Part shown: in pieces, positions 8,390-50,157 of the stretch | How positions within the stretch are numbered: the first letter of the stretch is position 1 | How the letters are laid out: each line of letters opens with the position of its first letter | Virus record (IMG/VR): IMGVR_UViG_3300033388_007794 | Location: 1 to 50,807 of that record | DNA: 50,807 nt | DNA from: a virus | Taxonomy: Duplodnaviria; Caudoviricetes | Strand: one strand, 5' to 3' | The notes under the pieces: model-generated | Databases searched by the model: none | Told to the model about the DNA's origin: nothing | Seen by the model: only the letters and a program-made list of their open reading frames with translations | Made by a program: the position numbers and the translations under genes

Positions 8390-8728
8390 TCACCTCCTAT
8401 TCCAAGAGTTTTCCGCGCTATCTCGTCCTTCTCGCTGCTCGTATAGAGCTCTTGAAATTATTTCTACGCATTTTATACTTATTTCGCAAAAACAAAACTT
8501 TTCAGGAGTATTGACATAATAAGATGTTTGTTCTTCTATTTTCGCTCGTATAGCTCTTAATGCTTCTTCTAATTTATTGTTTTTCCTTTCCAACTCCCCC
8601 ACCTGCTGGAGCCAGTAAATCGCTATCTTATGGATATATCTAAATGTTTCTTTGAGCGGCCCGGTGTAATTCTCAACCGCAAGCTCTTTGAGGAAAAGAT
8701 AGTCTTTCTGCCAATCCCGCTCAGGCAT
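8390..8728 (-). CDS. Hypothetical protein
   Basis: RDWQKD N-terminus, coiled coil, GGAGG RBS. Confidence 0.65.
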   Translation of the reverse strand: MPERDWQKDYLFLKELAVENYTGPLKETFRYIHKIAIYWLQQVGELERKNNKLEEALRAIRAKIEEQTSYYVNTPEKFCFCEISIKCVEIISRALYEQREGRDSAENSWNRR

Positions 8729-9167
8729 CCGAACCAGCCTCCTCTTTCTTTTTCAGTTTAAATATAGTTTGTATTGGTGCACTGTAACCGTGTCTTACTT
8801 TCACCTCGCCGGGATTTATCCACATTTCTGTTTTCATCGGAAACCTGAGATCAGTAGCGTCTATTCCCGCTTTCTCTGCAGCTTCCGCAAGCTCCGAGCA
8901 GGGGTAATAATCCACTGCTATTGTCCTAAAAAACTCTCCGCATCGAGGATCACCTTCTCTCCAGTAGTGTTGGTATTTCTGGAGAAGCTCTCTAATCTTA
9001 ACAGTCAGATTCTTCTTGAATGACTCAATTTGGTCTTCTGCGAGCGGCTTCAGTTTACTGGTCAGCCAATTCGCAAATAAAGACTGCAGAGGTTCGCCAT
9101 TGTCGTGTTTAGGCTCTTGTATTACTTTCGCCCACCATTCAACAGCAGCATTGATTTCCTCTTTCAC
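8721..9167 (-). CDS. Hypothetical protein
   Basis: AAVEWWA...DYYPCSELAEAA...FPMKTEMWI; GGAGGTG RBS. Confidence 0.7.
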   Translation of the reverse strand: MKEEINAAVEWWAKVIQEPKHDNGEPLQSLFANWLTSKLKPLAEDQIESFKKNLTVKIRELLQKYQHYWREGDPRCGEFFRTIAVDYYPCSELAEAAEKAGIDATDLRFPMKTEMWINPGEVKVRHGYSAPIQTIFKLKKKEEAGSDA

Positions 9168-17780: not shown

Positions 17781-18018
17781 CCTTCCGTTTTTCCCATCTT
17801 CCAAAAATCTCACCGCACTTTCTACATCCCCAAGCAACCAGATCAGCTCTAACACCCTGAAGCATCACTTGAATTACGGCATTAGTAATGACATGCATTG
17901 CGTATCGGGCTCGAGGTGAGCCGGATTTGATGAAGGAACGGATGTTTGCGGCTACAACGGTCTTGACATCCCGATATTCTTGCAGATCATAAACTTGAAC
18001 TTGCGTTTGATTTAGCAT
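17764..18018 (-). CDS. Hypothetical protein
   Basis: Start re-called at ATG 18018, behind AAGGAG. Confidence 0.55.
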   Translation of the reverse strand: MLNQTQVQVYDLQEYRDVKTVVAANIRSFIKSGSPRARYAMHVITNAVIQVMLQGVRADLVAWGCRKCGEIFGRWEKRKDDSCG

Positions 18019-18047
18019 TTGTGATATACTCTCCTTGAAGGTTAACA

Positions 18048-18236
18048 TTAAGCTATTTCTCGTGGCCCTCCGCTCAGGATCTGCTGGCGGAGGTCTTTTA
18101 TTTGTGCCTTCTGGAGGCGCTTCTGTATCTGCTTTGCGCTGTTTTGCAAAGTCAGGCCTCGCATGGCACATTTTCTGAGTTCCGGCAGGGCGTAGGCCAG
18201 AAATCCTCTGACTTTTCCCTCGTACCTGATTCTCAT
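18048..18236 (-). CDS. Small basic hypothetical protein
   Basis: ATG 18236 behind AGGGA. Confidence 0.45.
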   Translation of the reverse strand: MRIRYEGKVRGFLAYALPELRKCAMRGLTLQNSAKQIQKRLQKAQIKDLRQQILSGGPREIA

Positions 18237-18289
18237 GCTGCTTTTCCCTGGTTCAAAAAAGTTCACAATATCTAACACTTGTTAGATTT

Positions 18290-18645
18290 TTGTGCAACCG
18301 GCCTCCCTATGACCAGGCTTTCGCTCCTTTCGGATTGGATTTACCTGCTCCTGGGAGCAGGCACGCGACAGGGAGGCCTCGGCCCGGGAGTCCCACCCGG
18401 TGCGCCCACGGAACGGCTATCCGTTCCCGTACCCCAAGCCATAACAGGTTGACTGGAGCAGAGGCGACGTGCTCGCCGCCGCAGACGCCGCTCTGTTAGA
18501 GCGCCTACCGGTTTGTCCGATACCGGCTAAACGGCCTCACCGATTATTCCGGGTCATCGGTATTCCTTCCTCAGGCACCGCTTCTGTCCCGTTCATCGGC
18601 TTCCCGCCTCGGGCTGCTCACTTAGAGCACTCACGGCATCTTAAC
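18290..18645 (-). ncRNA. Candidate large structured RNA (~350 nt)
   Basis: At least nine hairpins packed end to end, two GAAA tetraloops on the minus strand, no credible ORF. Confidence 0.6.
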
Positions 18646-18735
18646 TATTTTTGCATTCGTTATGCTTTGTTAATATTTGTTGGCTTGTTGGTAGCTGTTA
18701 TACCCTCCTTTCTGTTAGAAAATTAGGAAAAAAGA

Positions 18736-18915
18736 TCACTTTACAACTTTCAACTTCGCCCGCAGTTGCTCCGATTCTTGTTTCCAGCACTGCAAGCACT
18801 GTTTTTGTATTACTTCGTCAATCACGGCTCCGTAGCAGCACCAGCAAAGCGGAATGTTACGGAGATAGAGAACTTCACCGGGTCCCAGTTGCACGCGGCA
18901 GTTCGCGCACCTCAA
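18736..18915 (-). CDS. Zn-finger protein (59 aa)
   Basis: Manual: MRCANC...LCWCCY...CLQCW; AAAGGAGG RBS, TTG start. Confidence 0.65.
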   Translation of the reverse strand: MRCANCRVQLGPGEVLYLRNIPLCWCCYGAVIDEVIQKQCLQCWKQESEQLRAKLKVVK

Positions 18916-19057
18916 GATGTTCGCCTCCTTTCGGTTTTTGGTTAACTATTTCAAATAAAATCCTGGCCGCCCGGTCGAACTCATCTCCGGTTTCCCGGCC
19001 CGGAATTTCCAGGCGGGAGACGGGTTCGCCGTTGCGGGTGTGAGTGTATATCACCAT
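18875..19057 (-). CDS. Hypothetical early protein
   Basis: GGAGGTGG RBS. Confidence 0.6.
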   Translation of the reverse strand: MVIYTHTRNGEPVSRLEIPGRETGDEFDRAARILFEIVNQKPKGGEHLEVRELPRATGTR

Positions 19058-19174
19058 TGCTCCACCTCCACTTTTGTCGCTAAAAAACCGCTTTTTAAAA
19101 TCGGGTCTCCGGTCGGGAGAAGATAACCATCATTGACCCGGGGGCCTCAAAACAAAACACCGACAGCCGGAGAC

Positions 19175-19429
19175 CTAGTGGCCTTCGGTGCCGGTGGATT
19201 GTGTATTTGCACGCATTTTGCGAACATCTTTTCCAAAAAAAATTTTTTCAATCGGAACTCCAAAAAAATTTGCAATGCGTTTTGCTGTTTCGAGTGCCGG
19301 TGTGCGTAACCCTAGTTCATACATTGCTATTGTACTAGGCTTCAAATCAAGTGCTTTTGCTAATTGCCTTTGTGATAAACCTCGTTCGCTTCGTAATTCT
19401 TGTAATAGCTTACTTTTCATAACAATCAC
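19175..19429 (-). CDS. cro: Cro-like XRE HTH regulator
   Basis: LRSERGLSQRQLAKALDLKPSTIAMYELGLRTP; divergent from cI. Confidence 0.88.
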   Translation of the reverse strand: MIVMKSKLLQELRSERGLSQRQLAKALDLKPSTIAMYELGLRTPALETAKRIANFFGVPIEKIFFGKDVRKMRANTQSTGTEGH

Positions 19430-19588: not shown

Positions 19589-20218
19589 ATGAAAACTTTT
19601 GCGCAAAGATTAAAACAACTGAGAGAAGAAAAAGAATTAAGCCAACGAGAATTAGCAAAACTGATTAATATTGCTCATAGCACACTTGGAATGTACGAAA
19701 TAGGTGAACGAGAACCTGATTTTAATACAGTTTCTCGTTTAGCTGCTTTCTTTAATACCTCTGTTGACTACCTCCTCGGTCGTACCGACGACCCCCGACC
19801 AATAGAAAAAATAGCCGAAGCCTGGCCTGTAGAGAAAATGGTGTCTGTTCCTGTTTATGGCGAAGTCAGGGCTGGCGATTTGATGTTTGCACAGGAGGAA
19901 ATTCTCGGTTATGAATTTTTGCCCGCAGAAGATGTGCAGGGGGGTGAATACTTCTTCCTGAAAGTCAAAGGAGACAGCATGATAAACGCCCGTATTTGCG
20001 AAGGAGACTTTGTATTAGTACGTAAACAGCCCGTCCTGGAAAACGGGAAAATCGGGGTAGTGCTGATAGGAGAGGAAGCTACAATAAAACGATTTTACAA
20101 GCAGGGGGATTTGGCGATTTTGAAGCCGGAAAATCCGGCCTATGAGCCCATCGTTGTGCCTTTGCGAGATGTGGTTATTATAGGAGAAATAGTGGAAGCC
20201 AAAATAAAGTTTAGTTAG
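19589..20218 (+). CDS. cI: CI/LexA-like repressor (HTH + S24 autopeptidase)
   Basis: XRE HTH, VRAG cleavage site, VKGDSM (Ser), ATIKR (Lys). Confidence 0.92.
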   Translation: MKTFAQRLKQLREEKELSQRELAKLINIAHSTLGMYEIGEREPDFNTVSRLAAFFNTSVDYLLGRTDDPRPIEKIAEAWPVEKMVSVPVYGEVRAGDLMFAQEEILGYEFLPAEDVQGGEYFFLKVKGDSMINARICEGDFVLVRKQPVLENGKIGVVLIGEEATIKRFYKQGDLAILKPENPAYEPIVVPLRDVVIIGEIVEAKIKFS

Positions 20219-21167: not shown

Positions 21168-22904
21168 ATGCTCCGCGCCGCAATCTACGCCCGATTCTCT
21201 TCCGACAACCAGCGTGACGAATCCATCGACGCCCAGGTGCGTCTCTGTAAGGAGTACATTAAAACTAAAGGGTATGCCTTGGTGAAAATTTACGCCGATG
21301 AAGCCATCTCGGGCCGAACAGATCAGCGTCCCCAATTTCAACAGATGCTTGCCGATGCGAAGGCCGGGCTTTTTGATGTAATCGTTACGGACAAGGTGGA
21401 CAGGTTCGCCCGGGATAAATGTGATTCCGCCGTCCACAAGAGATATTTGCGGAAGAAATGCGGCGTCCGGGTGGAGTACGCCTCTCAGCGAATCGACGAG
21501 ACACCGGAAGGAATGATGCTGGAAAGCGTCCTGGAGAGCTTAGCTGAATATTACTCTATGAATTTGGCCCGCGAGACTATGAAGGGCCTCACCGAGAACG
21601 CTCTCCGGGGCTGGCACACCGGCGGAATCCCGCCGTTCGGATTGAAAGTCGTCTCTCGAATTGTCGAAGGGAAAGAAGTTAAAACTTACGATGTTAACGA
21701 GGAAGAGGCAGCCGTCGTGCGTCGCATCTTCGAGATATACGATGTCGGCGGGACCTACGGAGATATTTGGACGGCCACGAAGGAAGATGTGATCCGCTTG
21801 CGCGGCAGGCCGCTTTCCAAGAACTCCATCCACGACATCTTGAGAAACGAGAAATACACCGGAACCTTTGTTTTCAAGAAAGGAACTAAAAAAGAACACA
21901 GGCATACACGGGCTGACGTGATTCGAGTTTCAAACGCTTTTCCGGCAATAATTTCCCGGGACCTGTGGGAAAGGGTGCAGGCCAGAATGGACAAGAGAAG
22001 GCAAAGCAACGCCGAGTGCGCCCGCGGCAGGGCAAAGGAAGTGTACCTGCTCTCCGGCCTGATTTACTGCGGCAGGTGCGGGTCCGCATTTGTCGGAAAC
22101 CCCGCCCGGGGGAAGACGAAGAAGAGATACGCTTATTACAAGTGCGGCCTGCGGGACAGATCGAAAGAATGCCGCGCAAAGACGATAAGAAAGGAAACGG
22201 TCGAGCAGTTTGTTATTGAAGATTTAAGGCGGGAAATCTTTAGCCCTGCGGCTAAGGCCAGGCTTCGGGAACGGTTTGCCGCCTACTTGGAAGAAAGGCC
22301 GAAGTCCATTGAAAAGCGAATTGCCCAAATCAAGTGGGAACTCGCAGGTGTGAACAGAGTAATAAACAATCTCGTAAATGCCATTGAGCAGGGGAAAGGC
22401 AGCGCCATCCTCATCGAACGCTTGCAAATGCAGGAGGAGCGCAGAAATATCTTGCAGGCGGAACTGCTCAACCTCGAAAGCAAGAAAGATAATCCGGTCG
22501 AGATTGACCTGGTTGATACGCTCCTCGAAAAAGCAGAAAGGGAACTTGAAAAGGTAGAGGACCCTAAGAAGCTACGTCAGCTAATCCAGCTTTTCGTCGA
22601 GCGGGTAACCGTTTATGATGATAGGGTAGAAGTCGAACTGAAAATAAAACTCCCCACCGGAGACGGTCCCGGCGGGGGTTTGGTTGCGACTGGTAGCCCC
22701 AACCTGCACTGGGTCGTAACCAAAACCGCACACGAGCGGTTAAACAAAAAGCCCCTTCCGGGGGCATTTTTTATTTGCTCTCCAGGAGCTTCCTCGCTTC
22801 CTCCGCGGGGATTGCCCACTCCAGTTGCGAGTTCATCTCCCGGGCAACCTTCTCCGCTTTTAGCTTCCCTTCCGCGCACATCTGGCGGATGCGTTGTCCG
22901 GTGA
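21168..22904 (+). CDS. int: Large serine integrase
   Basis: AIYARFSS (catalytic Ser), DEAISG, DRFAR, recombinase domain, LSGLIYCGRCG Zn ribbon, coiled coil. The C-terminal extension runs through a terminator. Confidence 0.93.
   Translation: MLRAAIYARFSSDNQRDESIDAQVRLCKEYIKTKGYALVKIYADEAISGRTDQRPQFQQMLADAKAGLFDVIVTDKVDRFARDKCDSAVHKRYLRKKCGVRVEYASQRIDETPEGMMLESVLESLAEYYSMNLARETMKGLTENALRGWHTGGIPPFGLKVVSRIVEGKEVKTYDVNEEEAAVVRRIFEIYDVGGTYGDIWTATKEDVIRLRGRPLSKNSIHDILRNEKYTGTFVFKKGTKKEHRHTRADVIRVSNAFPAIISRDLWERVQARMDKRRQSNAECARGRAKEVYLLSGLIYCGRCGSAFVGNPARGKTKKRYAYYKCGLRDRSKECRAKTIRKETVEQFVIEDLRREIFSPAAKARLRERFAAYLEERPKSIEKRIAQIKWELAGVNRVINNLVNAIEQGKGSAILIERLQMQEERRNILQAELLNLESKKDNPVEIDLVDTLLEKAERELEKVEDPKKLRQLIQLFVERVTVYDDRVEVELKIKLPTGDGPGGGLVATGSPNLHWVVTKTAHERLNKKPLPGAFFICSPGASSLPPRGLPTPVASSSPGQPSPLLASLPRTSGGCVVR
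22679..22724. other. Putative attP
   Basis: Inverted arms TTTGGTTGCGAC / GTCGTAACCAAA (11 of 12 match) around a 22-bp centre; 46 bp overall, inside the 3' part of int. Confidence 0.6.
22746..22772. terminator. Bidirectional intrinsic terminator
   Basis: AAAAA-GCCCC-TTCC-GGGGC-ATTTTTTT between convergent genes. Confidence 0.75.
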
Positions 22905-23310
22905 CATCCGCCAGGACGGAGAGCTCCTCGGCATGCACAGAGACTCCCATCTCGATTTTCGCCCGTACCCGGCACATGCGGACCATGATGCCGAGAGGGG
23001 TGTCCCACCAGGCCGCCGGGATGTCGTAGCTTGTAGCGGCCACCGGCGCCCAGAGGAGCTCGCAAAGCTCCAGGATAATCTCCTCCATCTCCTCCGGCTG
23101 CGGCCCCGTTCCCCGCGCGTAATCCCAGCACTGCTTCAACTCGGCTGCGAAGGGAAAAGGAAATTTGTCGGAACCGACGGTTACAGGCGTGGGCTGGAGC
23201 TTGAATCCGGACTGAATGCAGTCCAGGCGCATTGCCCAGAAGCGGACCTGGGAGAGCAGAATTTCCATCTCCCGGTGGAATAGTTCGTCGCTCATGTCGC
23301 GGATTTTCAA
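22771..23310 (-). CDS. Protein with C-terminal excisionase/MerR-like HTH
   Basis: AEELSVLADVTGQRIRQMCAEGKLKAEK...WAIPAEEA; AAGGAGG RBS. Confidence 0.7.
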   Translation of the reverse strand: MKIRDMSDELFHREMEILLSQVRFWAMRLDCIQSGFKLQPTPVTVGSDKFPFPFAAELKQCWDYARGTGPQPEEMEEIILELCELLWAPVAATSYDIPAAWWDTPLGIMVRMCRVRAKIEMGVSVHAEELSVLADVTGQRIRQMCAEGKLKAEKVAREMNSQLEWAIPAEEARKLLESK

Positions 23311-24575: not shown

Positions 24576-25274
24576 CTAAAATTTATCTGTGAAAACATGC
24601 CGGAACCGCCACATCAGCACGCCGTCCAGATTGCTTGCTCCCAGTTTATCGAATTCTGGGTCGAAGAAGGTTGTCAGCCTCGTTTTATCCCACCCCACCA
24701 CAGGGGCGTAGAGATCATAGACACTGGCATAAGGGAGATTGTTGCTAAAGATATGCGCCCATACGTCCTTCCAGGACCAGTCCGCTATGGGCCAGCACTC
24801 AAGGATCACGCCAATGCTCTGCTCTCTATTTATGCGTCTCCTGCGCTTCAAAGACTCCTCTCGCCGCAGGCCGACAAAGGCCAGGTCATAACCTTCTTCT
24901 TTCAACTTGGGCACTAGTTTGCCGAGATATTCCCTGCCCAGGACGTTTACCGCCCTGCGCCCAAGCCGTTTATACTCGGGGCTGGTCTCCACACGGATAT
25001 TCTTTGCGCCGATTTTTTTGGCATTATTTATAAATTCAGCTTCCAGCCAGCGCGGGATGTAGTAGGGGCCATAATCCCAGTGAAGAACCAGCACATTCGG
25101 CTTCTGTTCCATCACCAGGTGCAGAACGCAGGTAGAGTCTTTTCCGCCAGAAAAGGCTACGTAAGGTTTCTTATTTCTCTGCAACGCCTTCCTGATTATA
25201 TCCCGTGACTCCTCGACTTTTTTCTTGTGCTCATCCATTTCTGCCCATTTGCGAAGGACTTCTTTCCAACCCAT
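24576..25274 (-). CDS. cysH: CysH/PAPS-reductase-family protein (type IV-B associated)
   Basis: PP-loop AFSGGKDS, GLRREESLKRR, PIADWSWKDVW. Confidence 0.88.
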   Translation of the reverse strand: MGWKEVLRKWAEMDEHKKKVEESRDIIRKALQRNKKPYVAFSGGKDSTCVLHLVMEQKPNVLVLHWDYGPYYIPRWLEAEFINNAKKIGAKNIRVETSPEYKRLGRRAVNVLGREYLGKLVPKLKEEGYDLAFVGLRREESLKRRRRINREQSIGVILECWPIADWSWKDVWAHIFSNNLPYASVYDLYAPVVGWDKTRLTTFFDPEFDKLGASNLDGVLMWRFRHVFTDKF

Positions 25275-25385
25275 TTTTAGATCGTCCTCCCCCGAGCTTT
25301 AATCCAGTATTGGCTCCAGTTTTCTCCTGGGAATCGGTTTTGTGTAGCATTTCATATCTTTCCGGTACGGCGCGTACTGCGAACA

Positions 25386-26129
25386 CTAACACTTGAGCTT
25401 ACACCTCGCCCCCGGAGGCACGCATAGGGCGACATTGCGTGGCTCCCAATATGGCCCTTTGTATGCAATGTAAGTGGCGTCGTCATATTCTTCGCACATC
25501 GACACGGGGATCGGCCTCATAGCAATGCCGTTAGCTACTAGAGACCAATCCTCTTCCATCTCCTCAAAAACTATGTTCTTAATCGCGCCGAAGCCAATTC
25601 TATTGTCGTTCCCCAAGCTCACGAGATAACTCCTAATAAGGCGTTCTATCAGCTTCATGTCGCCATTCACGTAGAAGATAATTTCTTTCGCGGGAATATA
25701 GACTTCCTTCATGGCATATGCGCGGAAGTGGCCAGATCCAATCCTGATCTTCTTCTGCCTCAAGTTCCCCGCCCAACGTTCCTCAAAGCGTTTGTAGATC
25801 TGGGTCAGATGTATACTGTGCGGCGAGAATAAGCTCACACTGCAGTGGTATATCTCGCCCGTCTTTTTGATTGGCAACAGTCTTCTATTACCTACTTGCT
25901 CAAGGTATGGAGTCAGATTCAGCTTTTTCGGTAGCACAAAAAAATCTTGTCCAAAGGTGTCCATCATGATCAGGTGCCCCAGCAGGCCATCGAAGTTAAT
26001 CCAGGGAGTAGTAACACATACTGGAGTGCGTAACTTAAATGTGATCTTGAAAGGAATAAATCTATTCCACCGCAAGGGCGGAGCAAGGCTCGCTACGTGC
26101 TGGAAATACTTGATTTCATCCATCATCAT
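25386..26129 (-). CDS. csf3: Type IV CRISPR Cas5-like RAMP
   Basis: LRTPV...FDGLL, SGHFRAY, G-rich loop LGNDNRIGFG, RPIP, PYW. Confidence 0.8.
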   Translation of the reverse strand: MMMDEIKYFQHVASLAPPLRWNRFIPFKITFKLRTPVCVTTPWINFDGLLGHLIMMDTFGQDFFVLPKKLNLTPYLEQVGNRRLLPIKKTGEIYHCSVSLFSPHSIHLTQIYKRFEERWAGNLRQKKIRIGSGHFRAYAMKEVYIPAKEIIFYVNGDMKLIERLIRSYLVSLGNDNRIGFGAIKNIVFEEMEEDWSLVANGIAMRPIPVSMCEEYDDATYIAYKGPYWEPRNVALCVPPGARCKLKC

Positions 26130-26962
26130 AGCGTATTTTCCAGCTCCTGCAATAAAACTTTAATGTCGTCCTTCTTCTCCTTCACAAATTCCAGATACAG
26201 GCTGGTGTCGGGTCTGTTTTTGTAGTTCAGCATAACCTTTCCGTCCCCGCTTGAACTTCTGCCACCTACATATGGCATCATCTCGAATAGGTCGAGCACT
26301 CTGCCGAAGCAGCTCTTCTGCAGCTCGTCCGGGAGCTGTAATACAAACCGATGATAGAATTTCGTCCCGGGCACAAAACATTCGTAGTCAACTTTCATCT
26401 GCACCGCCTGCTCGCCTTCTTCCCTTTCCGCCCGTAGATCATCTCTGCGCGTGATGAAGCTCTGGTCGGTGAACACACGTATCGGCTGGGAAGCGCGCTG
26501 GTCGTTTTGGTATTCTGAAGGCAGATAATCTTTATATTCCGCACATATGGGCATCATGTGCTCAACGATGAGAATCCCCTGAATCATCTGGTTCCCTATG
26601 GCACAGCCGAATATGGCGGCGGGGATGATGAGGTTCCTCACTCTTTTCCTGAGTGCCAGGTCTATAACGCCTGTGGCCTCTTCCGTGCTCTCCAGGACGC
26701 CGCCGGAAAACAACGAGTGGTACACCTTTGCGTTGGTGAGTTCATAACCCACTAGGTCCAAAAAATCCTTCATCGCCAGCCTGCGGAGTTTGCCGCGGAT
26801 GCCGTTGCCGGATAGGTAAGGAATCGGGACCTCACCTACGCCGTCCACATATATCGTAATGGTCCGTAATACCGGCGTGGACCCGGTTTTCTCGTCACCA
26901 CCGTGAAAAATCGGCGTCAGCGCTATTACAGTACCCTCAATTTCGAAAAACTTTTTATCCAT
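26126..26962 (-). CDS. csf2: Type IV CRISPR Cas7-like backbone
   Basis: ALTPIFHG, PYLSGNGIRGKLRR, LFSGG, IFG, VGGRSSSGDG. Confidence 0.88.
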   Translation of the reverse strand: MDKKFFEIEGTVIALTPIFHGGDEKTGSTPVLRTITIYVDGVGEVPIPYLSGNGIRGKLRRLAMKDFLDLVGYELTNAKVYHSLFSGGVLESTEEATGVIDLALRKRVRNLIIPAAIFGCAIGNQMIQGILIVEHMMPICAEYKDYLPSEYQNDQRASQPIRVFTDQSFITRRDDLRAEREEGEQAVQMKVDYECFVPGTKFYHRFVLQLPDELQKSCFGRVLDLFEMMPYVGGRSSSGDGKVMLNYKNRPDTSLYLEFVKEKKDDIKVLLQELENTL

Positions 26963-27374
26963 CCGTCAATACCTCCTCTAAGTTTGAAGGAGCCAACTCA
27001 GAATTATCCTGCTGGCGCTTAGCGGCACGTTTTCTCTCGTCTCTTATCTCCTTTGCCCGCATGATCGCCAACATGGACATAGGGATGTGCTCAGTATACA
27101 GCTTGTTCAGCACTTCTCTCTCGTGCGGGCGCAACTCCTGGATCAACTCCAGCGCTTCCGCAGGCAGAGATTGAAGCCCGAAGTAGTTTGCTAGCTTACT
27201 CACAGCTTCGTATAGCGTAGCTCTACGACTGGCAGCCCTCACGCGATGGTTGAAGATGTCGTGAGGGTTCTTGCTGGTCCGCATCTTGCTCCAGTCGACT
27301 GCGTTGTAGATTATGGCCAGTAGTTTGACGATCTGCTTTTCCCTCTGTTCGCTATCTGCGTGTGACATCAACAA
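26955..27374 (-). CDS. cas11: Type IV-B small subunit (Cas11-like)
   Basis: 139-aa helical protein between csf1 and csf2, the IV-B gene order. Confidence 0.65.
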   Translation of the reverse strand: MLMSHADSEQREKQIVKLLAIIYNAVDWSKMRTSKNPHDIFNHRVRAASRRATLYEAVSKLANYFGLQSLPAEALELIQELRPHEREVLNKLYTEHIPMSMLAIMRAKEIRDERKRAAKRQQDNSELAPSNLEEVLTDG

Positions 27375-27984
27375 TCACCTCCCACAGGGGATCCCCCTTG
27401 TATTTTGCCAGTTCCCGCAAAAAGTCCTGGTGCCCCTGCTGGAACGCCTTCTGCCAGGTCTTAGGTTTGAATTCCCCGGCAAGCAGTTCCGTTTTTCTGA
27501 TGCCGAGTTCCAATGCTCTAGCCACTTTGCTTGTGTATGCTTCCGCCTTATCGCGCTTAAACAGTATGGGCACATCGTACTTTTCGTGGGAGAAGAAGTA
27601 GCGGTTGGGATTGCAGGCTATGCGGTTCAGGCAGGTGAGCCAGGTCTGGCGCTGGCCTTGCTTGGCGATATGGATAAAGAACGGTGGCTCAGGTGGGTCA
27701 AATAAGACATCTGAGGCTTCGTCGTTTTTGAACGTTCGGAAGCCAGCAGGTGAGGCTATCCACGACCGTTTGCGGAAGGTCTGGTCGGAGAACAGAAAAG
27801 CGCACTCAGGGCACATGCAGTTGCCTGCGTACAGGTAGCTCCAGCCGGTGAAGTTGCCGGAGACGCATTTCTTAACCGGAAGCCCGCGCTCTGTTTCCCG
27901 GCAACATACAACGCATACTCCGGCTGTTTCCCCTTCGACCACACTCTTCTTTGTAGCAGTCAATAAAAGCTCGCCCAGATTCAA
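27352..27984 (-). CDS. csf1: Type IV CRISPR large subunit (Cas8-like)
   Basis: CVVC...SGNFTGW...CPEC Zn finger and PPEPPF motif; first gene of the operon. Confidence 0.78.
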   Translation of the reverse strand: MNLGELLLTATKKSVVEGETAGVCVVCCRETERGLPVKKCVSGNFTGWSYLYAGNCMCPECAFLFSDQTFRKRSWIASPAGFRTFKNDEASDVLFDPPEPPFFIHIAKQGQRQTWLTCLNRIACNPNRYFFSHEKYDVPILFKRDKAEAYTSKVARALELGIRKTELLAGEFKPKTWQKAFQQGHQDFLRELAKYKGDPLWEVIVDVTRR

Positions 27985-46446: not shown

Positions 46447-49400
46447 TTACACCACCTCCTCACGAATCCCGAAACCCCCGACACTAAAGCCCGTTATAAC
46501 ACCCTCTTTAACTTGTCTCCATAAATTGTCATCGCTAATATGAACGCTCATTATCCATGACCCCTTCTTGACCTTATGGCCGTTGATTTCTAAGTCCTGT
46601 GGAGCAGTATACGATTCAACAACTTCAGCTTTAGCTTTCTTGCTATGCCGATAACCAATCACACGGGATTTGAGCATAAAACGATAGGCCGCATCTTCTA
46701 TGCTCTGGGCTGATATAACATCGCCCTGAGAATCCACCGTGTCTGGTTCCAGAACTACTCCCGTTACTATTTGCTTTTCGTCCGCTTTAAGTATCGCGGC
46801 GTGGTATTCTTTAGCAACTTTGGCTTTTGCCACATCGATTTTTTGTACGGGCTTCCCTGGTTCATCAGCCCACAACAACCACTTTTGCCCCTTTTGCTTC
46901 AGCTCGCTTATAACATCAGCGAGGTCGTGGGTTTTTGTGTACGGTTCTTGCGATTTTGGCCGGTTCACAAGCCACACCCTGCGCCCCTGTTCCATCGGGG
47001 CATATTGGATAAGCAACCGTCCTTTCAGATGCTTGCCGTCTAAGAAAAGCTCGCGGCCATGCTCTCTAGCGAATGAGAACTTATATTCGCCACCGTCAAG
47101 CTTAAAAAATTTACTATACGTCTGGCTTGTAGAACCTGGCCCACCTGGCTCGGAGATATAGGGCTCTTTATCTGTAATAGTGATCCACTCAACTGGCTGG
47201 AATAACTTAAACTGGCCCTGTAAGCTGTCATCGGGCGGCAGTTCAAGCAAGCGGCTTCCATATTTTGTCTTGCGGATGTCTTCGGTATCTCCTTCAAAAA
47301 CCGAAAAGCCCCAAGCTGTTTCATCGTCTATCTGAAAGCGTAAATCACCGTGGACGCTATGATTAGTCTTCAATAGCTCCTCATGGCTAAGCTTGGTTTC
47401 TTCTTCTGTCAGCCCACGCCAGTGCATCTGATATACCCACCTGCCGCGCCCGGACTTGGGGTACATGTTATGCCACTCTTCTTCATATAGCTTTGCTGCT
47501 ACTTCAGCTCTGGTATCGCCTTCTTCGCCTAAACGGTCAGCTTTCTTCACTTGCTTTAATGCCTGCTTGATCTGCTTTACCTTCCTTGCTACTTCTCCAC
47601 TGTCCCCAAACCGCCTCACCGCTACCGGATGCGGCAAAACAAAATCCGCCCGGTCTCCCAGGACGGATTTGGCGGTCTGGCCGAGCGCCACTACAATTTG
47701 CGGGTTGGCTTTATCAAGTTCCTGATACAACCAGTCGCGCCACTCTTCTATTTCCTGCTCGTTCGGCTCTCTCACTCTTCCTCTGTCGTCCGTTAACAGG
47801 ACTGGCACAACGTTAGTCAAGAAAACGTCTTTTCTGGTTAAGCCCAATGGTTTCAGGTAAAGCTCGTTCAACGTTTCTCCACAAGGCCCGACAAACGGCT
47901 CTCCCCTTGCCGCTTCAATCGGGCCGGGGGAGGCACCAATAAAAGCTATCTTTGCATTCTTCGACCCGGTGCCGGGGACTATCTCCCGCGCGGCCTTTTG
48001 CAATACTTGCCCCCGTTTGGCAATGTCAATAGCTTGCGCAGCGGTGTATGGTTCTTTGCGTGTTTTGTCTACATCAATAGGACGCGCACCGAGCCAAGCC
48101 AGAACTTTCTTTTCTTCATCAGGGAGAAGTTCAAGTACTTCGCAGGTTATAACATCCCCGACCTGAGCCTTAACGGTGCTGGTGGAGAAAGTTTTACCTA
48201 AATCAATATATTCCTTGTCGCCAAGCTTTCGGGTATTACGCCACTCCATGCCCACGCTCGGTAGGAGGCCACCATAATAATTTACCGTGCCAGGCGTCTT
48301 AGTTTGCTGAACCTGCAATACTTTTACCTTTAATTCAATGACCTTTTTGACTTTGCTCCACTCGTCAGTAGCCCCGTCCAGTTCATACTTCCCGCTAGCC
48401 GTCTTTGCCACAAGCCCTTCCGAGCGATCCTGATTGAATGCCCACCGAGCAGCAACTTTAAGCTCCTGCAAATTATTGCACCATTTGACCTGGGTGATAG
48501 CAAAATTCTCCTTGCCCTTCAAGTACTTATCATAGAACTGCTCCAGCTTCTTCCTGCGTTCTTTAAACGGTTTTTCGTGCAGGTCTTCATCCCAGTATGG
48601 CAGGTCGAAAACTGTCAGTATCGGCGTTTCATTTTGTTTGATGTCCGGCTTGTCGGCATTGAAAGTCATCAGGTCAGGACGCGCCACCCGCTTACCGCCA
48701 CGGAGCATCCCCAAATCGCAGTCCAGGATGAAATCGGCATCTATTTTCTCTAACGCGGCTTTAAGGCCGGCGAACTTGTGCAGTTGGTCCTTACCGTACT
48801 GCCCTTCAAACCAAAAGCGAACGCCTTTACCTTTCTTACCCTCTGCTATTCCTCGAAAGCCATTGAGCTTACCTTCCACATCAAAAAGCGTTTTGTCTTT
48901 ACCCCACTTTTCCCACAACTCATCAACCGTATATAGCTCCGTATATAATGCCACCTGCGGCTTCGGAGGAATAAACTTCTGGAATGGCTCAAGTCCCTCC
49001 TTAGTTACGTCCTCCGGCTTGCGGAACACGCCACGCACATATACCAGATCACCGTTCTCGATCTCCTTCAACTTTTCGACCTCGAACTTCGGCCTACCCT
49101 CTAACAAGTCATCCTGGGTCCAGAAGACAAAGCTAGACTTATTCCAAAAGCTCTTGTGATCGGGATGGTTAAACGCACCCTCGCCTTTCGTGCTCGGTAC
49201 CTCAAACACGAACCTGCCGCCGGGCTTCAGCACGCGCCAGATTTCGGCCATGATTTTTTCTTTGTCCGACAGGTGCTCCAAAACGTGGTTTGCACGTATC
49301 TCATCTGCGCTGTCATCCGGGTAGGGTATACCTTGCTCAAGATCATGAAGCATGTCCACCTGCGGACCCGGCTCTTTGTCGATCCCCGTATAGCCTTCAG

Positions 49401-50157
49401 GTTTAGAATCGCCACAGCCGAGGTCGAGCTTAAGCGAATCCCCTTTTACTACCTGCCGCTTCGGTTCCTCACGCCGAAGAACTAACGAATAGCAGGGCAT
49501 GAAATCTGCATGGCTCCCCTGGGGTGAATCAATAAAATGTAGAATACCTTTCTTCTCTGGGTCCAGCACTTTCCGCACAGGCAACCAGACATTGTCAGCT
49601 TGGATGAGGAAGTTTTCTCCAGATTCGTCCCTGTTGGCCCTGAAAAGCACGTCTATATCGTTCGGGTTCTCTTTGCCAACAGCCGCAGATCCTACTACCG
49701 ACACGAAGTTGGGAACCACAACCACTTCCTCTGGCAGTTCTGCCAGCTTCGCCTCCAGGCTCTGCGCCTTCTTCACATCGCGCAGTTTCTTGGCCTCCTG
49801 CACAAGTTCGCTATTCTCGTCATAATCGAAGCCTCGCCGTTCAAATTCGTCGAGTACCCAAATGGTCGCATTTACAATATCCTCCACCGATTCCTTGCGC
49901 TTCTTAGCTGCGCTATACCATTGATGCAGCCTGAGCCATGCCATGCGAACCTCATCATCCGAAGCGCCCTTCAACTTATCAGGCCGCATCTCGGTCAGAG
50001 CCATCTTCTCCAGGAAAGACGGCTCCTCCGGCTCGCGCCAGCGGGCTTTGCCCCCAGCAGAGGGCATAGCAGCTTTATGCAAATCACGCATTAGCCAGTC
50101 GGGTAAGTATTGTTTTGCTTTTTCAAGAAGGGTTTCGAGATATTCTTTGCTTGGCAT
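46447..50157 (-). CDS. Head polyprotein: NTase + SAM-MTase + ATP-dependent ligase + UDG-like + LigD phosphoesterase + XkdF-type prohead protease
   Basis: GS..DID (aa 156-169); DLGCG/HVLEH (245-295); KLNGFR, FDL, EGLVAK, WSKVK (430-604); IGASPG/PFVG/TNVV/HP (740-844); QMH...HGDLR (910-940); GVVLEPD.VDSQGD...GYRH...GSW...GFSVGG (1133-1228). Confidence 0.88.
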   Translation of the reverse strand: MPSKEYLETLLEKAKQYLPDWLMRDLHKAAMPSAGGKARWREPEEPSFLEKMALTEMRPDKLKGASDDEVRMAWLRLHQWYSAAKKRKESVEDIVNATIWVLDEFERRGFDYDENSELVQEAKKLRDVKKAQSLEAKLAELPEEVVVVPNFVSVVGSAAVGKENPNDIDVLFRANRDESGENFLIQADNVWLPVRKVLDPEKKGILHFIDSPQGSHADFMPCYSLVLRREEPKRQVVKGDSLKLDLGCGDSKPEGYTGIDKEPGPQVDMLHDLEQGIPYPDDSADEIRANHVLEHLSDKEKIMAEIWRVLKPGGRFVFEVPSTKGEGAFNHPDHKSFWNKSSFVFWTQDDLLEGRPKFEVEKLKEIENGDLVYVRGVFRKPEDVTKEGLEPFQKFIPPKPQVALYTELYTVDELWEKWGKDKTLFDVEGKLNGFRGIAEGKKGKGVRFWFEGQYGKDQLHKFAGLKAALEKIDADFILDCDLGMLRGGKRVARPDLMTFNADKPDIKQNETPILTVFDLPYWDEDLHEKPFKERRKKLEQFYDKYLKGKENFAITQVKWCNNLQELKVAARWAFNQDRSEGLVAKTASGKYELDGATDEWSKVKKVIELKVKVLQVQQTKTPGTVNYYGGLLPSVGMEWRNTRKLGDKEYIDLGKTFSTSTVKAQVGDVITCEVLELLPDEEKKVLAWLGARPIDVDKTRKEPYTAAQAIDIAKRGQVLQKAAREIVPGTGSKNAKIAFIGASPGPIEAARGEPFVGPCGETLNELYLKPLGLTRKDVFLTNVVPVLLTDDRGRVREPNEQEIEEWRDWLYQELDKANPQIVVALGQTAKSVLGDRADFVLPHPVAVRRFGDSGEVARKVKQIKQALKQVKKADRLGEEGDTRAEVAAKLYEEEWHNMYPKSGRGRWVYQMHWRGLTEEETKLSHEELLKTNHSVHGDLRFQIDDETAWGFSVFEGDTEDIRKTKYGSRLLELPPDDSLQGQFKLFQPVEWITITDKEPYISEPGGPGSTSQTYSKFFKLDGGEYKFSFAREHGRELFLDGKHLKGRLLIQYAPMEQGRRVWLVNRPKSQEPYTKTHDLADVISELKQKGQKWLLWADEPGKPVQKIDVAKAKVAKEYHAAILKADEKQIVTGVVLEPDTVDSQGDVISAQSIEDAAYRFMLKSRVIGYRHSKKAKAEVVESYTAPQDLEINGHKVKKGSWIMSVHISDDNLWRQVKEGVITGFSVGGFGIREEVV

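What the first reader, a model, noticed from the sequence alone, without database searches (positions are those of the whole stretch)
18290..18645. ~350-nt hairpin-dense non-coding region in the early lytic operon: candidate novel structured RNA
Seen: stems at 18300-18308/18370-18378 (enclosing 18344-18361 and two GAAA-tetraloop hairpins on the minus strand), 18384-18400, 18410-18427, 18463-18477, 18489-18503, 18508-18526, 18539-18561, 18603-18613 and 18615-18629. It is GC-rich, has no credible ORF in an otherwise tightly packed genome, and I do not recognise a family. Inference: a put-like antitermination RNA, a protein sponge, a ribozyme, or an RNA partner for the array-less type IV-B complex.
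Basis: partly seen in the sequence, partly recalled or inferred. Interest (0 to 1): 0.7.

Follow-up and report, generated by a model that had tools for sequence, protein, structure and literature searches.

The report
Gene-less mini-transposon carrying guide-RNA scaffold
The hairpin-rich stretch is a real folded-RNA region, but it belongs to a stripped-down jumping gene (a protein-less IS607-type transposon that keeps the guide-RNA scaffold of its Cas12-like TnpB protein) that landed between two early phage genes, so it is a new example of a known kind of element, not a new phage RNA.

Summary
Window 18290-18645 is GC-rich and has no conserved ORF. It folds well only on the minus (early-operon sense) strand and matches no Rfam family.

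It is not phage-specific. The first DNA search of Bacillota genomes gave matches in 42 of 401. In seven full copies the same RNA region fills the last ~330 nt of a ~2.74-kb IS607-family element: MerR/resolvase serine recombinase TnpA, a 575-aa TnpB-related protein with a Cas12f-like predicted fold, then this RNA, ending ...UUUUUUGAACCAGG.

The window holds both ends of that element: left end 18703-18641 and RNA plus right end 18623-18247. It holds neither gene. It is therefore a ~460-bp protein-less mini-IS607, inserted just after the AGGAGG ribosome-binding site of the 62-aa early gene.

The best reading is a TnpB guide-RNA (omega RNA) scaffold carried as a selfish passenger. That step is inferred, not shown.

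The type IV-B partner idea fails: the RNA is in 0 of 29 csf loci and 0 of 10 whole csf-bearing virus records. The other proposed phage functions have no support. Known kind, new member, moderate interest.

The parts
18247..18709 (-). Whole protein-less mini-IS607 element with its AGGAGG junction. Whether the AGGAGG/GG belongs to the target or to the element cannot be told from conservation alone.
   Evidence: Both ends are homologous to full-length elements. Similarity to the bacterial copies stops at GAACCAGG.
18704..18709 (-). AGGAGG at the left junction. Presumed original Shine-Dalgarno of the 62-aa gene and TAM-like motif.
   Evidence: (A)GGAGG stands at the left junction of 7 of 7 full copies and of the window. 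The review PMC13565253 (passages) gives AGGAG or GAGGG as the TAM of most IS607 TnpBs and says insertion is at or after GG.
18641..18703 (-). Left end (LE) of the transposon. In full copies it is followed by the tnpA start.
   Evidence: nhmmer with a profile of 7 left ends hits 18708-18655, E 4.9e-7. blastn gives 76-84% identity. The pairwise alignment runs to about 18641.
18644..18673 (-). Promoter-like site TTAACA-18-AATAGT inside the LE. It is the counterpart of the TTGACA-bearing tnpA promoter region of full copies.
   Evidence: Consensus scan, 9 of 12 positions; LE alignment. Function not tested.
18546..18602 (-). Remnant of the 3' coding end of tnpB, now non-coding. This is the 5' part of the presumed guide-RNA scaffold. 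About 120 nt present in full copies are missing between 18546 and 18542.
   Evidence: blastn 83-84% identity over about 30 nt; local alignment.
18247..18542 (-). Conserved structured RNA core, the presumed omega-RNA scaffold, running to the right end.
   Evidence: nhmmer E 1.9e-83 for 18623-18244. Up to 88-89% identity over the last 155-166 nt and 89-90% over the ~105-115 nt aligned. Covariation.
18491..18501 (-). Hairpin with the conserved loop in CUCUAACAGAG.
   Evidence: Two of its pairs change on both sides in 11 of 29 sequences each.
18384..18400 (-). Helix CCGGG/CCCGG.
   Evidence: 91.7% of cells paired; 4 of 5 pairs show changes on both sides.
18300..18378 (-). 3' domain. The outer stem GGCCUCCCU/AGGGAGGCC encloses hairpin 18342-18363 and two GAAA hairpins at 18317-18334.
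   Evidence: Pair probability 0.98-0.99 in the window for the outer stem and the 18342-18363 hairpin, 0.82-0.85 for the two GAAA hairpins. Outer stem 90-98% paired with compensatory U-A to C-G changes. Model R2, built from it, finds 49 of 50 bacterial loci.
18255..18294 (-). AU-rich hairpin (18264-18294) followed by U6 (18255-18260). It looks like a terminator; it may instead be the last scaffold stem.
   Evidence: Pair probability 0.95-0.98. In the 29-sequence alignment 4 pairs change on both sides, in up to 13 of 29 sequences. The U-run is nearly invariant. The terminator scan did not call it.
18247..18254 (-). Right end GAACCAGG, with the terminal GG typical of IS607.
   Evidence: Nearly invariant in the 49-sequence alignment. 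This is the boundary of similarity. [quoted passage not shown]
18227..18246 (-). Flank that would be read as the guide if the RNA works like an omega RNA. It covers the start codon (18234-18236) of the 62-aa gene 18048-18236.
   Evidence: Inference from position only (sequence read; ORF).

Best explanation
The flagged region is the RNA-coding right part of a ~460-bp gene-less derivative of an IS607-family insertion sequence.

**The full element.** In thermophilic Bacillota it is ~2.74 kb. It carries a serine-recombinase TnpA, a ~565-575-aa TnpB-related (Cas12f-like) protein, and a ~330-nt structured non-coding region that runs from the tnpB stop to the right end (...UUUUUUGAACCAGG).

**The phage copy.** It keeps the ~60-nt left end with its promoter-like site, a ~55-nt remnant of the tnpB 3' end, and the whole conserved RNA core and right end. 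It has lost both genes. It sits in sense orientation in the early operon, directly after the AGGAGG ribosome-binding site of a 62-aa gene.

**Most likely mechanism (inferred).**
1. The RNA is the guide-RNA (omega/reRNA) scaffold of the TnpB-like protein.
2. It is transcribed from the early promoter or from the left-end promoter.
3. It would carry the adjoining phage flank as its guide.
4. With a TnpB-like protein supplied in trans by full copies in the host, it would target the uninterrupted AGGAGG-plus-flank site. That favours retention of the insert.

For the phage it is most likely a selfish passenger. Side effects are possible: a weaker ribosome-binding site and a terminator-like hairpin upstream of the downstream early genes.
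For: **Shown**

1. *Homologues in bacteria.* 42 of 401 sampled Bacillota genomes match the RNA at E<=0.01, often with 2 or more copies per genome.
2. *Full copies.* Seven full copies in 4 genomes define a ~2.74-kb element, 74-98% identical to one another.
   - ORF1 is MerR HTH plus Resolvase.
   - ORF2 hits TIGR01766 at 46 bits (cut-off 32) and guided_TnpB at E 6e-17.
   - NCBI names its relatives 'TnpB-related'.
   - Its AlphaFold model (pLDDT 70.9) matches Cas12f, Cas12k, Cas12m and CasX: 36 Foldseek hits at E<=0.001, best 9e-8.
3. *Both ends are in the window.* The window matches the left end (E 4.9e-7) and the RNA plus right end (E 1.9e-83). It encodes neither protein: best tblastn E 0.48.
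4. *Linkage to tnpB.* All 20 genomes with a near-full-length copy at 60% identity or more are RNA-positive. In the copies I compared, the RNA lies directly 3' of the gene, on the same strand, and ends at the element boundary.
5. *Structure.*
   - 49 sequences: 82.6% of cells paired, against 37.7-56.3% when partners are slid. 93 cells changed on both sides, against 27-59 slid and 43.6 +/- 7.2 shuffled (0 of 500 shuffles reach the observed value).
   - 29 sequences, including a pseudoknot helix: 88.5% paired against 33.6-52.9% slid; 84 such cells against 14-42 slid.
   - Many conserved G-U pairs fit only this strand.
6. *Ends.* The element ends in GG, and (A)GGAGG stands at the left junction in 8 of 8 copies. 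This fits the IS607 rule and the TAM AGGAG/GAGGG given in PMC13565253 (passages).
7. *Not coding.* Single-base indels are scattered through the alignment.

**Known from papers (passages read)**
- TnpB guide RNAs run from the tnpB 3' end to the right end and add the flank as guide (PMC13565253).
- Gene-less PATE-like elements often encode omega RNAs that are used in trans (10.1101/2023.03.14.532601).
Against: - **No expression or binding data.** No sequencing run was listed.
- **Hairpin plus U6 before the presumed guide.** A conserved hairpin and U6 lie 8 nt before the right end. If they terminate transcription efficiently, no guide would be made.
- **The partner protein is atypical.** It has an invariant His where I recall the third RuvC Asp of TnpB, and it has no zinc finger (the motif is recalled, not tested). 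It has no sequence-level hit to any solved TnpB or Cas12. The Foldseek TM-scores are low, 0.2-0.37.
- **The phage copy may be impaired.** It lacks ~120 nt that full copies have at the tnpB 3' end.
- **No sign of mobility as a mini-element.** It is a single copy. No second LE-plus-RE mini copy was seen among the 55 bacterial loci. No empty-site relative of the phage could be found.
- **Host unknown.** Whether its host carries the full element is therefore unknown.
Confidence: 0.8

Rival explanations
1. The conserved RNA is not a guide RNA. It is a structured 3' UTR or right-end module of the transposon with another role: mRNA stabiliser or terminator for tnpB, a regulator of transposition, or a DNA-level recombination site. 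The phage copy is simply a deletion remnant.
For: - A conserved hairpin plus U6 lies just before the right end.
- The TnpB-like protein has His at the presumed third RuvC position and no zinc finger.
- There are no RAGATH-18 or other known omega-RNA matches in Rfam.
- Copies holding only the 3' domain exist without an adjacent tnpB, for example L153 upstream of a flavorubredoxin gene.
Against: - Covariation extends over ~300 nt and includes a long-range (pseudoknot) helix. That is more than a terminator or a recombinase site needs.
- G-U pairs show an RNA-level constraint.
- Position, strand and the end exactly at the transposon boundary are those of TnpB guide RNAs (PMC13565253 passages).
- The partner has a Cas12f-like fold.
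Confidence: 0.1
2. The phage has put the captured RNA to its own use as a cis-acting leader in the early operon, for instance put-like antitermination or control of the terminator-like hairpin.
For: - Sense orientation, ~550-1250 nt downstream of the PR-like promoter at 19502-19474.
- A terminator-like hairpin with U6 directly upstream of the next early gene.
- The copy is well preserved: 88-89% identity to bacterial copies over the last 155-166 nt.
Against: - The same hairpin, U6 and GAACCAGG are part of the transposon wherever it sits, so they were not shaped by the phage.
- No homologue was found in the 7 loci that share the neighbouring phrog_10048-like early gene, nor in the CI relatives.
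- The stringent motif has 0 hits in IMG/VR viral contigs, although it finds the window and 34 bacterial loci.
Confidence: 0.05
3. The RNA is the missing RNA partner of the array-less type IV-B (Csf) complex encoded at 24576-27984.
For: Both lie in one phage genome. The type IV-B cassette is real: Csf1, Cas11, Csf2 and Csf3 by PADLOC at E 1e-42 to 2e-80, plus a CysH-like gene. No CRISPR array is present.
Against: - The RNA was not found in any of 29 viral loci carrying the same cassette, at up to 83% Csf2 identity.
- It was not found in 0 of 10 whole csf-bearing virus records, 3 of them 100% complete, with model R2. R2 does find 49 of 50 bacterial copies.
- The RNA is instead linked to a TnpB-like gene in 20 of 20 genomes.
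Confidence: 0.02

Closest known systems
IS607-family insertion sequences with TnpB and its guide RNA (omega RNA/reRNA), e.g. the RAGATH-18-derived reRNA systems such as ISFba1 (PMC11061315, passages read)
   Same: - Serine-recombinase TnpA with a MerR-type HTH, plus a tnpB-family gene and a structured RNA from the tnpB 3' end to the right end.
- The element ends in GG.
- A G-rich AGGAG-like motif stands at the left junction.
- The RNA is conserved with covariation.
   Different: - The RNA is not RAGATH-18: no Rfam hit.
- The RNA is much longer: ~330 nt after the stop codon, against a 73-nt RAGATH-18 core with ~50- and ~60-nt flanks.
- The protein is ~565-575 aa against an average of 390 aa. 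It lacks the zinc finger and has His at the presumed third catalytic position.
- The window copy has no genes at all.
PATE-like minimal IS200/IS605 elements that encode omega RNAs used in trans (Geobacillus stearothermophilus; 10.1101/2023.03.14.532601, passages read)
   Same: No protein-coding gene; both transposon ends kept; carries the guide-RNA region; would depend on TnpA and TnpB encoded elsewhere.
   Different: - Those belong to the IS605 family (Y1 transposase, hairpin ends). This one derives from an IS607-family (serine recombinase) element.
- This is a single copy, in a phage genome, not a multi-copy genomic family.
Miniature IS607 elements with guide-RNA scaffolds noted earlier in this scan, mostly in archaea (e1-5022669, e1-2616929, e1-4809060, e1-5449610)
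   Same: Same architecture: promoter-bearing left end plus guide-RNA scaffold and right end, with no genes.
   Different: Other genomes and unrelated sequences. These are unchecked AI notes. The present case is bacterial, in a temperate phage, and has a larger RNA.
HK022 put-type antiterminator RNAs
   Same: Structured RNA in a phage early operon, read in the sense direction.
   Different: - As I recall, put RNAs are about 70 nt with two stems and are phage-specific.
- This RNA is ~300 nt or more, is shared with bacterial transposons, and is absent from related phages.

Membership tests
IS607-family insertion sequence (as a gene-less derivative) | Full-length relatives encode a serine-recombinase TnpA (MerR-type HTH plus resolvase domain) | tested here: met
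   L156 ORF1, 228 aa: Resolvase E 1.3e-23, MerR E 3.8e-14. The window itself has no such gene (tblastn).
IS607-family insertion sequence (as a gene-less derivative) | Full-length relatives encode a TnpB-family protein | tested here: met
   TIGR01766 at 46 bits, over the cut-off of 32; guided_TnpB at 62 bits, below its cut-off of 100. Cas12f-like predicted fold. No hit in my Pfam copy and no PDB sequence hit.
IS607-family insertion sequence (as a gene-less derivative) | Element terminates in GG and sits at or after a GG; no terminal inverted repeats or target duplication | tested here: met
   The right end is ...CCAGG and the left junction (A)GGAGG in 7 of 7 full copies and in the window. The rule is taken from PMC13565253 passages. 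Inverted repeats and target duplications were not examined systematically.
IS607-family insertion sequence (as a gene-less derivative) | The window region is homologous to both ends of the full element | tested here: met
   Left end 18708-18655, E 4.9e-7. RNA plus right end 18623-18244, E 1.9e-83.
TnpB guide RNA (omega RNA / reRNA) | Encoded on the tnpB strand, from the 3' end of tnpB to the transposon right end | tested here: met
   Shown in the 7 full copies and by the coordinates of the copies compared.
TnpB guide RNA (omega RNA / reRNA) | Conserved secondary structure supported by covariation | tested here: met
   82.6% and 88.5% of cells paired; 93 and 84 cells changed on both sides; 0 of 500 shuffles reach the observed value; slid controls are far lower.
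TnpB guide RNA (omega RNA / reRNA) | Sequence conservation stops at the right end, and the variable flank serves as guide | tested here: inconclusive
   Conservation stops exactly after GAACCAGG. Use of the flank as guide was not testable, and a hairpin plus U6 precedes the end.
TnpB guide RNA (omega RNA / reRNA) | Binds the TnpB protein and directs TAM-dependent DNA targeting | not testable with these tools
   Needs co-purification, RIP-seq and an interference assay.
RAGATH-18 (Rfam) reRNA of IS607 TnpB | Match to the Rfam covariance model | tested here: not met
   No Rfam match at gathering score in the window or in 8 bacterial loci. None at E<=10 in 17900-19300.
MITE/PATE-like non-autonomous element | Both ends present, no coding capacity | tested here: met
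MITE/PATE-like non-autonomous element | Multiple dispersed copies of the same miniature form | tested here: not met
   One copy in the window. No other locus among 55 bacterial loci has a left end within ~450 nt of the RNA. 0 hits of the motif in IMG/VR.
RNA partner of type IV-B Csf complex (hypothetical) | Co-occurrence with csf cassettes | tested here: not met
   0 of 29 loci and 0 of 10 whole records. Positive control for the model.
Phage early-operon antiterminator/leader RNA | Conserved at the same position in related phages | tested here: not met
   No homologue in the loci that share the CI gene and the phrog_10048-like gene.

The most novel reading that the evidence does not exclude
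The phage-borne, gene-less guide-RNA module is not inert. Transcribed early in infection, it would load the host's own TnpB-like protein with a guide that matches the uninterrupted AGGAGG-plus-flank site. That would cut or block co-infecting or resident relatives that lack the insert, making it a guide-RNA-only gene drive or competition weapon in a phage population. Alternatively it would soak up the host protein. The RNA would then also define an uncatalogued, unusually large omega-RNA class for a thermophilic, zinc-finger-less D-E-H TnpB lineage.
Probability: 0.1. Interest if true: 0.75.

Novelty: new member of a known kind. Interest (0 to 1): 0.38.

Why it matters
**It removes a false lead.** A GC-rich, hairpin-dense, ORF-free block in a phage early operon looks like a new regulatory RNA. 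Here it is a transposon's guide-RNA scaffold.

**Three modest points of value remain.**

1. This RNA family is absent from Rfam, yet the first DNA search matched 42 of 401 sampled Bacillota genomes. It travels with a ~570-aa TnpB-related protein of thermophiles (Moorella, Desulfofundulus, Carboxydothermus and others, as the sources name the proteins). That protein has a Cas12f-like predicted fold, no zinc finger and a D-E-H motif. It is a possible thermostable RNA-guided system worth a bench test.
2. Gene-less derivatives of IS607-family elements that carry only the guide-RNA region are little documented in bacteria. My motif scan found none in other viral contigs.
3. The left junction of all 8 copies is (A)GGAGG. 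In 7 of 10 copies read, an ATG follows the right end within 3-15 nt. This suggests the family habitually lands between a ribosome-binding site and its start codon, which would affect expression of the downstream gene.

Tried and rejected
**Searches for relatives that found nothing**
- Rfam: nothing at gathering score. At E<=10 only a sub-threshold Proteo-phage-1 hit outside the region.
- blastn against 50,697 phage records: no match.
- Relatives through neighbouring proteins:
  - phrog_10048-like gene: 4 viral loci.
  - 84-aa gene: none.
  - CI: 9 viral loci and 80 metagenome loci.
  - Csf2: 29 viral loci.
  - nhmmer and blastn found no RNA homologue in these 127 loci, 890 kb. Single-sequence models R1 and R2 found none in 99 of them.
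- The 62-aa gene in genome contigs gave only 3 weak, probably spurious loci.

**Exact-pattern scans chosen blind**
- An 18-mer in viral contigs gave 2 chance hits inside a coding gene.
- A 25-base degenerate pattern in metagenomes gave 0 hits.

**Other dead ends**
- Sequencing runs: none was listed and no RNA holder was listed.
- GC-island hunt in related loci:
  - The L011 island is a repetitive coding region.
  - The L004 island is a different, tRNA-like element next to a hammerhead.

**Ideas considered and dropped**
- CRISPR-like repeats or an RNA anti-CRISPR: there are no repeats.
- An intron splitting a gene: the flanking ORFs are complete.
- A TCTAACA operator cluster: 9 matches against 5.2 expected in the whole window, not significant. 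Two of the local copies turn out to be conserved transposon features.
- The 12-nt direct repeat at 18255-18266 and 18728-18739 as a target duplication: about 0.5 expected by chance by my own estimate, and IS607 makes none.
- The single-sequence MFE helix 18635-18641/18483-18489: the family alignment instead supports pairing of 18483-18488 with a partner near 18403-18408 (my reading).

Full report
**Setting**

The window is a whole, 99%-complete IMG/VR virus record of 50,807 nt. It is a temperate siphovirus-like phage.
- A LexA-type CI repressor lies at 19589-20218 (+). It faces a Cro-like HTH gene at 19175-19429 (-), with a TTGACA-17-TATTAT promoter-like site at 19502-19474 (-).
- A large serine integrase lies at 21168-22904.
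- Early and replication genes run on the minus strand down to about 5 kb. Packaging, lysis, tail and capsid genes fill the rest.
- A type IV-B cassette (csf1, cas11, csf2, csf3 and a CysH-like gene) lies at 24576-27984 without any array.

The flagged stretch lies between a 59-aa gene (18736-18915) and a 62-aa gene (18048-18236) of the early operon.

**Observation**

- GC reaches 0.62-0.66, against 0.43-0.53 around it.
- The minus strand folds at -164.5 kcal/mol, z = -3.21, with 0 of 100 shuffles as stable. The plus strand has z = -0.70.
- Rfam gives no match at gathering score in the window. In 17900-19300 at E<=10 there is only a sub-threshold hit elsewhere.
- There are no CRISPR-like repeats.

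**A long blank, then homologues**

The phage-oriented searches gave nothing.
- GenBank phages: no match.
- 127 loci fetched through the neighbouring early gene, CI and Csf2 from viral and metagenome collections: no match.
- Two single-sequence covariance models: no match in 99 of those loci.
- tblastx showed that related phages share CI and the phrog_10048-like gene but not the 16.4-19.1 kb segment.

A DNA search of 401 genomes sampled from one Bacillota phylum changed the picture. 42 of 401 genomes match at E<=0.01 (25 at E<=1e-10), often at two or more places per genome. Two blocks were conserved at up to 89-93% identity. Similarity runs through the terminal hairpin and stops at GAACCAGG.

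**What the homologues are**

In the bacterial genomes the conserved RNA region directly follows a long ORF. Seven copies from four genomes align over ~2.74 kb at 74-98% identity. That defines a mobile element with sharp ends.
- ORF1 (228 aa) is a MerR-HTH plus resolvase serine recombinase. This is the hallmark of IS607-family TnpA.
- ORF2 (575 aa) has these properties:
  - It passes the TIGR01766 'TnpB-related' domain cut-off and hits the guided_TnpB model below its cut-off.
  - Of 252 relatives at E<=1e-5, those that carry a source name are mostly called TnpB-related, IS605 OrfB or transposase. They come from Moorella/Neomoorella, Desulfofundulus, Desulforamulus, Aceticella, Carboxydothermus, Ammonifex and others.
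  - My Pfam copy and sequence or profile searches of the PDB give nothing.
  - An AlphaFold model (pLDDT 70.9, pTM 0.47) matches Cas12f, Cas12k, Cas12m and CasX chains: 36 Foldseek hits at E<=0.001, best 9e-8. TM-scores are low, 0.2-0.37.
  - In 25 aligned relatives D328, E417 and H484 are invariant and there is no zinc finger. That H484 stands where canonical TnpB has its third Asp is my recollection of the motif, not a test.
- After the stop codon come ~330 nt of conserved non-coding sequence, ending ...UUUUUUGAACCAGG.

**The window copy**

- The window matches the left end at 18708-18655 (nhmmer E 4.9e-7; 76-84% by blastn). The alignment runs on to about 18641.
- It matches the RNA plus right end at 18623-18244 (E 1.9e-83).
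- A ~55-nt remnant of the tnpB 3' coding end lies at 18602-18546. About 120 nt of that end are missing.
- tblastn finds no TnpA or TnpB in the window (best E 0.48).

The flagged RNA is therefore part of a ~460-bp gene-less derivative of this IS607-family element, in sense orientation in the early operon.

The left junction reads AGGAGG, as in all 7 full copies ((A)GGAGG), and the element ends in GG. A 2026 review (PMC13565253, passages) states three things:
- IS607 elements mostly end in GG.
- They integrate at or after GG.
- Most IS607 TnpBs have the TAM AGGAG or GAGGG.

Removing the element from the window leaves AGGAGG followed, 10 nt later, by the ATG of the 62-aa gene. That is a normal ribosome-binding arrangement and argues for a clean insertion.

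In 7 of the 10 copies whose right flank I read, an ATG follows within 3-15 nt. This count has no statistical control.

**Is it a structured RNA?**

Yes.
- On 49 aligned 3' regions, the helices taken from the window fold keep 82.6% of cells paired, against 37.7-56.3% when partners are slid. 93 cells changed on both sides, against 27-59 slid and 43.6 +/- 7.2 in shuffles (0 of 500 reach the observed value).
- On 29 longer sequences, a family structure of 64 pairs, including one crossing (pseudoknot) helix, keeps 88.5% paired against 33.6-52.9% slid. 84 cells changed on both sides, against 14-42 slid.
- The best-supported helices are the CUAACAG-loop hairpin, the CCGGG/CCCGG helix, the outer stem and inner hairpin of the 3' domain, and the terminal AU-rich hairpin.
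- The two GAAA hairpins are less well supported: 50-82% paired.
- Conserved G-U pairs and scattered single-base indels point to an RNA on the tnpB strand and argue against coding.

Caveats:
- The alignments are MAFFT alignments.
- The window-derived structure favours itself over the slid versions.
- Related sequences inflate the shuffle statistics.

**Is it the guide RNA?**

This step is inferred. Points in favour:
- The position (tnpB 3' end to right end), the strand, and the end at the transposon boundary.
- Strict linkage. All 20 genomes with a near-full-length copy of the protein are RNA-positive. In the copies I compared, the RNA directly abuts the gene.
- A Cas12f-like partner and a TAM-like left junction.

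The papers I read passages of describe exactly this arrangement for TnpB (PMC13565253; PMC11061315). They also describe gene-less PATE-like elements that encode omega RNAs used in trans (10.1101/2023.03.14.532601).

Points against:
- The conserved hairpin plus U6 lies 8 nt before the end and could stop transcription before any guide.
- The protein has atypical catalytic and zinc-finger features.
- There are no expression data (no run was listed).
- The phage copy lacks ~120 nt.

CCUGGU at 18312-18317 is complementary to ACCAGG at 18247-18252. Both are nearly invariant, so a guide-proximal pseudoknot is possible but untestable by covariation.

**Rivals**

- Type IV-B partner. R2, the model of the 3' domain, finds 49 of 50 bacterial loci. 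It finds none of the 29 csf loci and none of 10 whole csf-bearing virus records, three of them complete.
- Phage-specific leader or antiterminator. A stringent three-block motif hits the window and 34 bacterial loci but no other IMG/VR contig. The hairpin and U6 belong to the transposon everywhere.
- A non-guide role of the RNA in the transposon stays open at about 0.1.

**Novelty**

My four literature searches listed no paper on this RNA or on this TnpB clade in these thermophiles. The library is limited and supplements were not read.

The kind is known. This scan has itself already noted several miniature IS607 elements with guide-RNA scaffolds, mostly in archaea (unchecked notes that I saw only after reaching my reading).

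New here are the RNA family (absent from Rfam), its size, its atypical partner protein, and its presence as a gene-less copy inside a temperate phage.

**Verdict**

It is a new member of a known kind, of moderate interest.

Noticed in passing
window 24576-27984 (-): An array-less type IV-B cassette (csf1, cas11, csf2, csf3) with a CysH-like PAPS-reductase gene sits between the integrase module and the lysis genes. The same five-gene block recurs at 64-72% DNA identity (Csf2 up to 83% protein identity) in many of the 29 viral contigs fetched with Csf2. These contigs range in GC from 0.30 to 0.57.
   Followed up: partly
window 19107-19168 (+): Sub-threshold match to Rfam Proteo-phage-1 (26.2 bits, gathering score 42, E 0.032). 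It lies between the Cro-like gene and the next early ORF, on the strand opposite to the early operon.
   Followed up: no
L004 4453-4520 and 4690-4950: A related phage (same CI and phrog_10048-like genes) carries two things at the equivalent early-operon position. One is a type II hammerhead ribozyme (38.4 bits, gathering score 37). About 170 nt further on is a ~260-nt ORF-free GC-rich stretch whose 3' part looks tRNA-like (T-arm and acceptor-like pairing, by eye) but is not called by Rfam.
   Followed up: no
window 8721-9167 (-): A 148-aa early protein matches the Pfam BTG family (PF07742, E 2.3e-17, 63 bits). As I recall, BTG is known mainly as a eukaryotic antiproliferative domain.
   Followed up: no
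window 46447-50157 (-): A 1236-aa protein combines methyltransferase, ATP-dependent DNA ligase, uracil-DNA-glycosylase-superfamily and XkdF-type prohead protease domains in a single ORF.
   Followed up: no
window 22771-23310 (-): A second GC-rich island (0.65) is a 179-aa ORF with no family hit, just beyond the integrase gene. It looks like a recently acquired gene, not an RNA.
   Followed up: partly
L153 1080-1646 (also L165, L167, L168, L170, L174, L177, L185): Some bacterial copies hold only the 3' domain and right end of the RNA. They are preceded by unrelated ORF-free GC-rich sequence and have no TnpB-like gene next to them. L153 sits 10 nt upstream of a flavorubredoxin gene. About 11 RNA-positive genomes with strong RNA hits had no TnpB-like hit at E<=1e-20.
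   Followed up: partly
L156 2584-4308 (TnpB-like protein; alignment A7): The ~570-aa TnpB-related lineage has invariant D328, E417 and H484. It has no zinc finger and carries a ~90-aa helical C-terminal extension whose coding DNA overlaps the 5' part of the RNA. It may be a D-E-H nuclease, or only a binding protein.
   Followed up: partly
window 18271-18286, 18494-18500, 18713-18719: UCUAACA occurs three times in 450 nt: in the terminal hairpin, in the conserved CUAACAG loop and in the phage flank just left of the insertion. The first two are conserved transposon features. The similarity of the left flank to the right end (also GTGAnCTTTTTT at 18728-18739 and 18255-18266) is unexplained. It could be chance or target-site mimicry.
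   Followed up: partly
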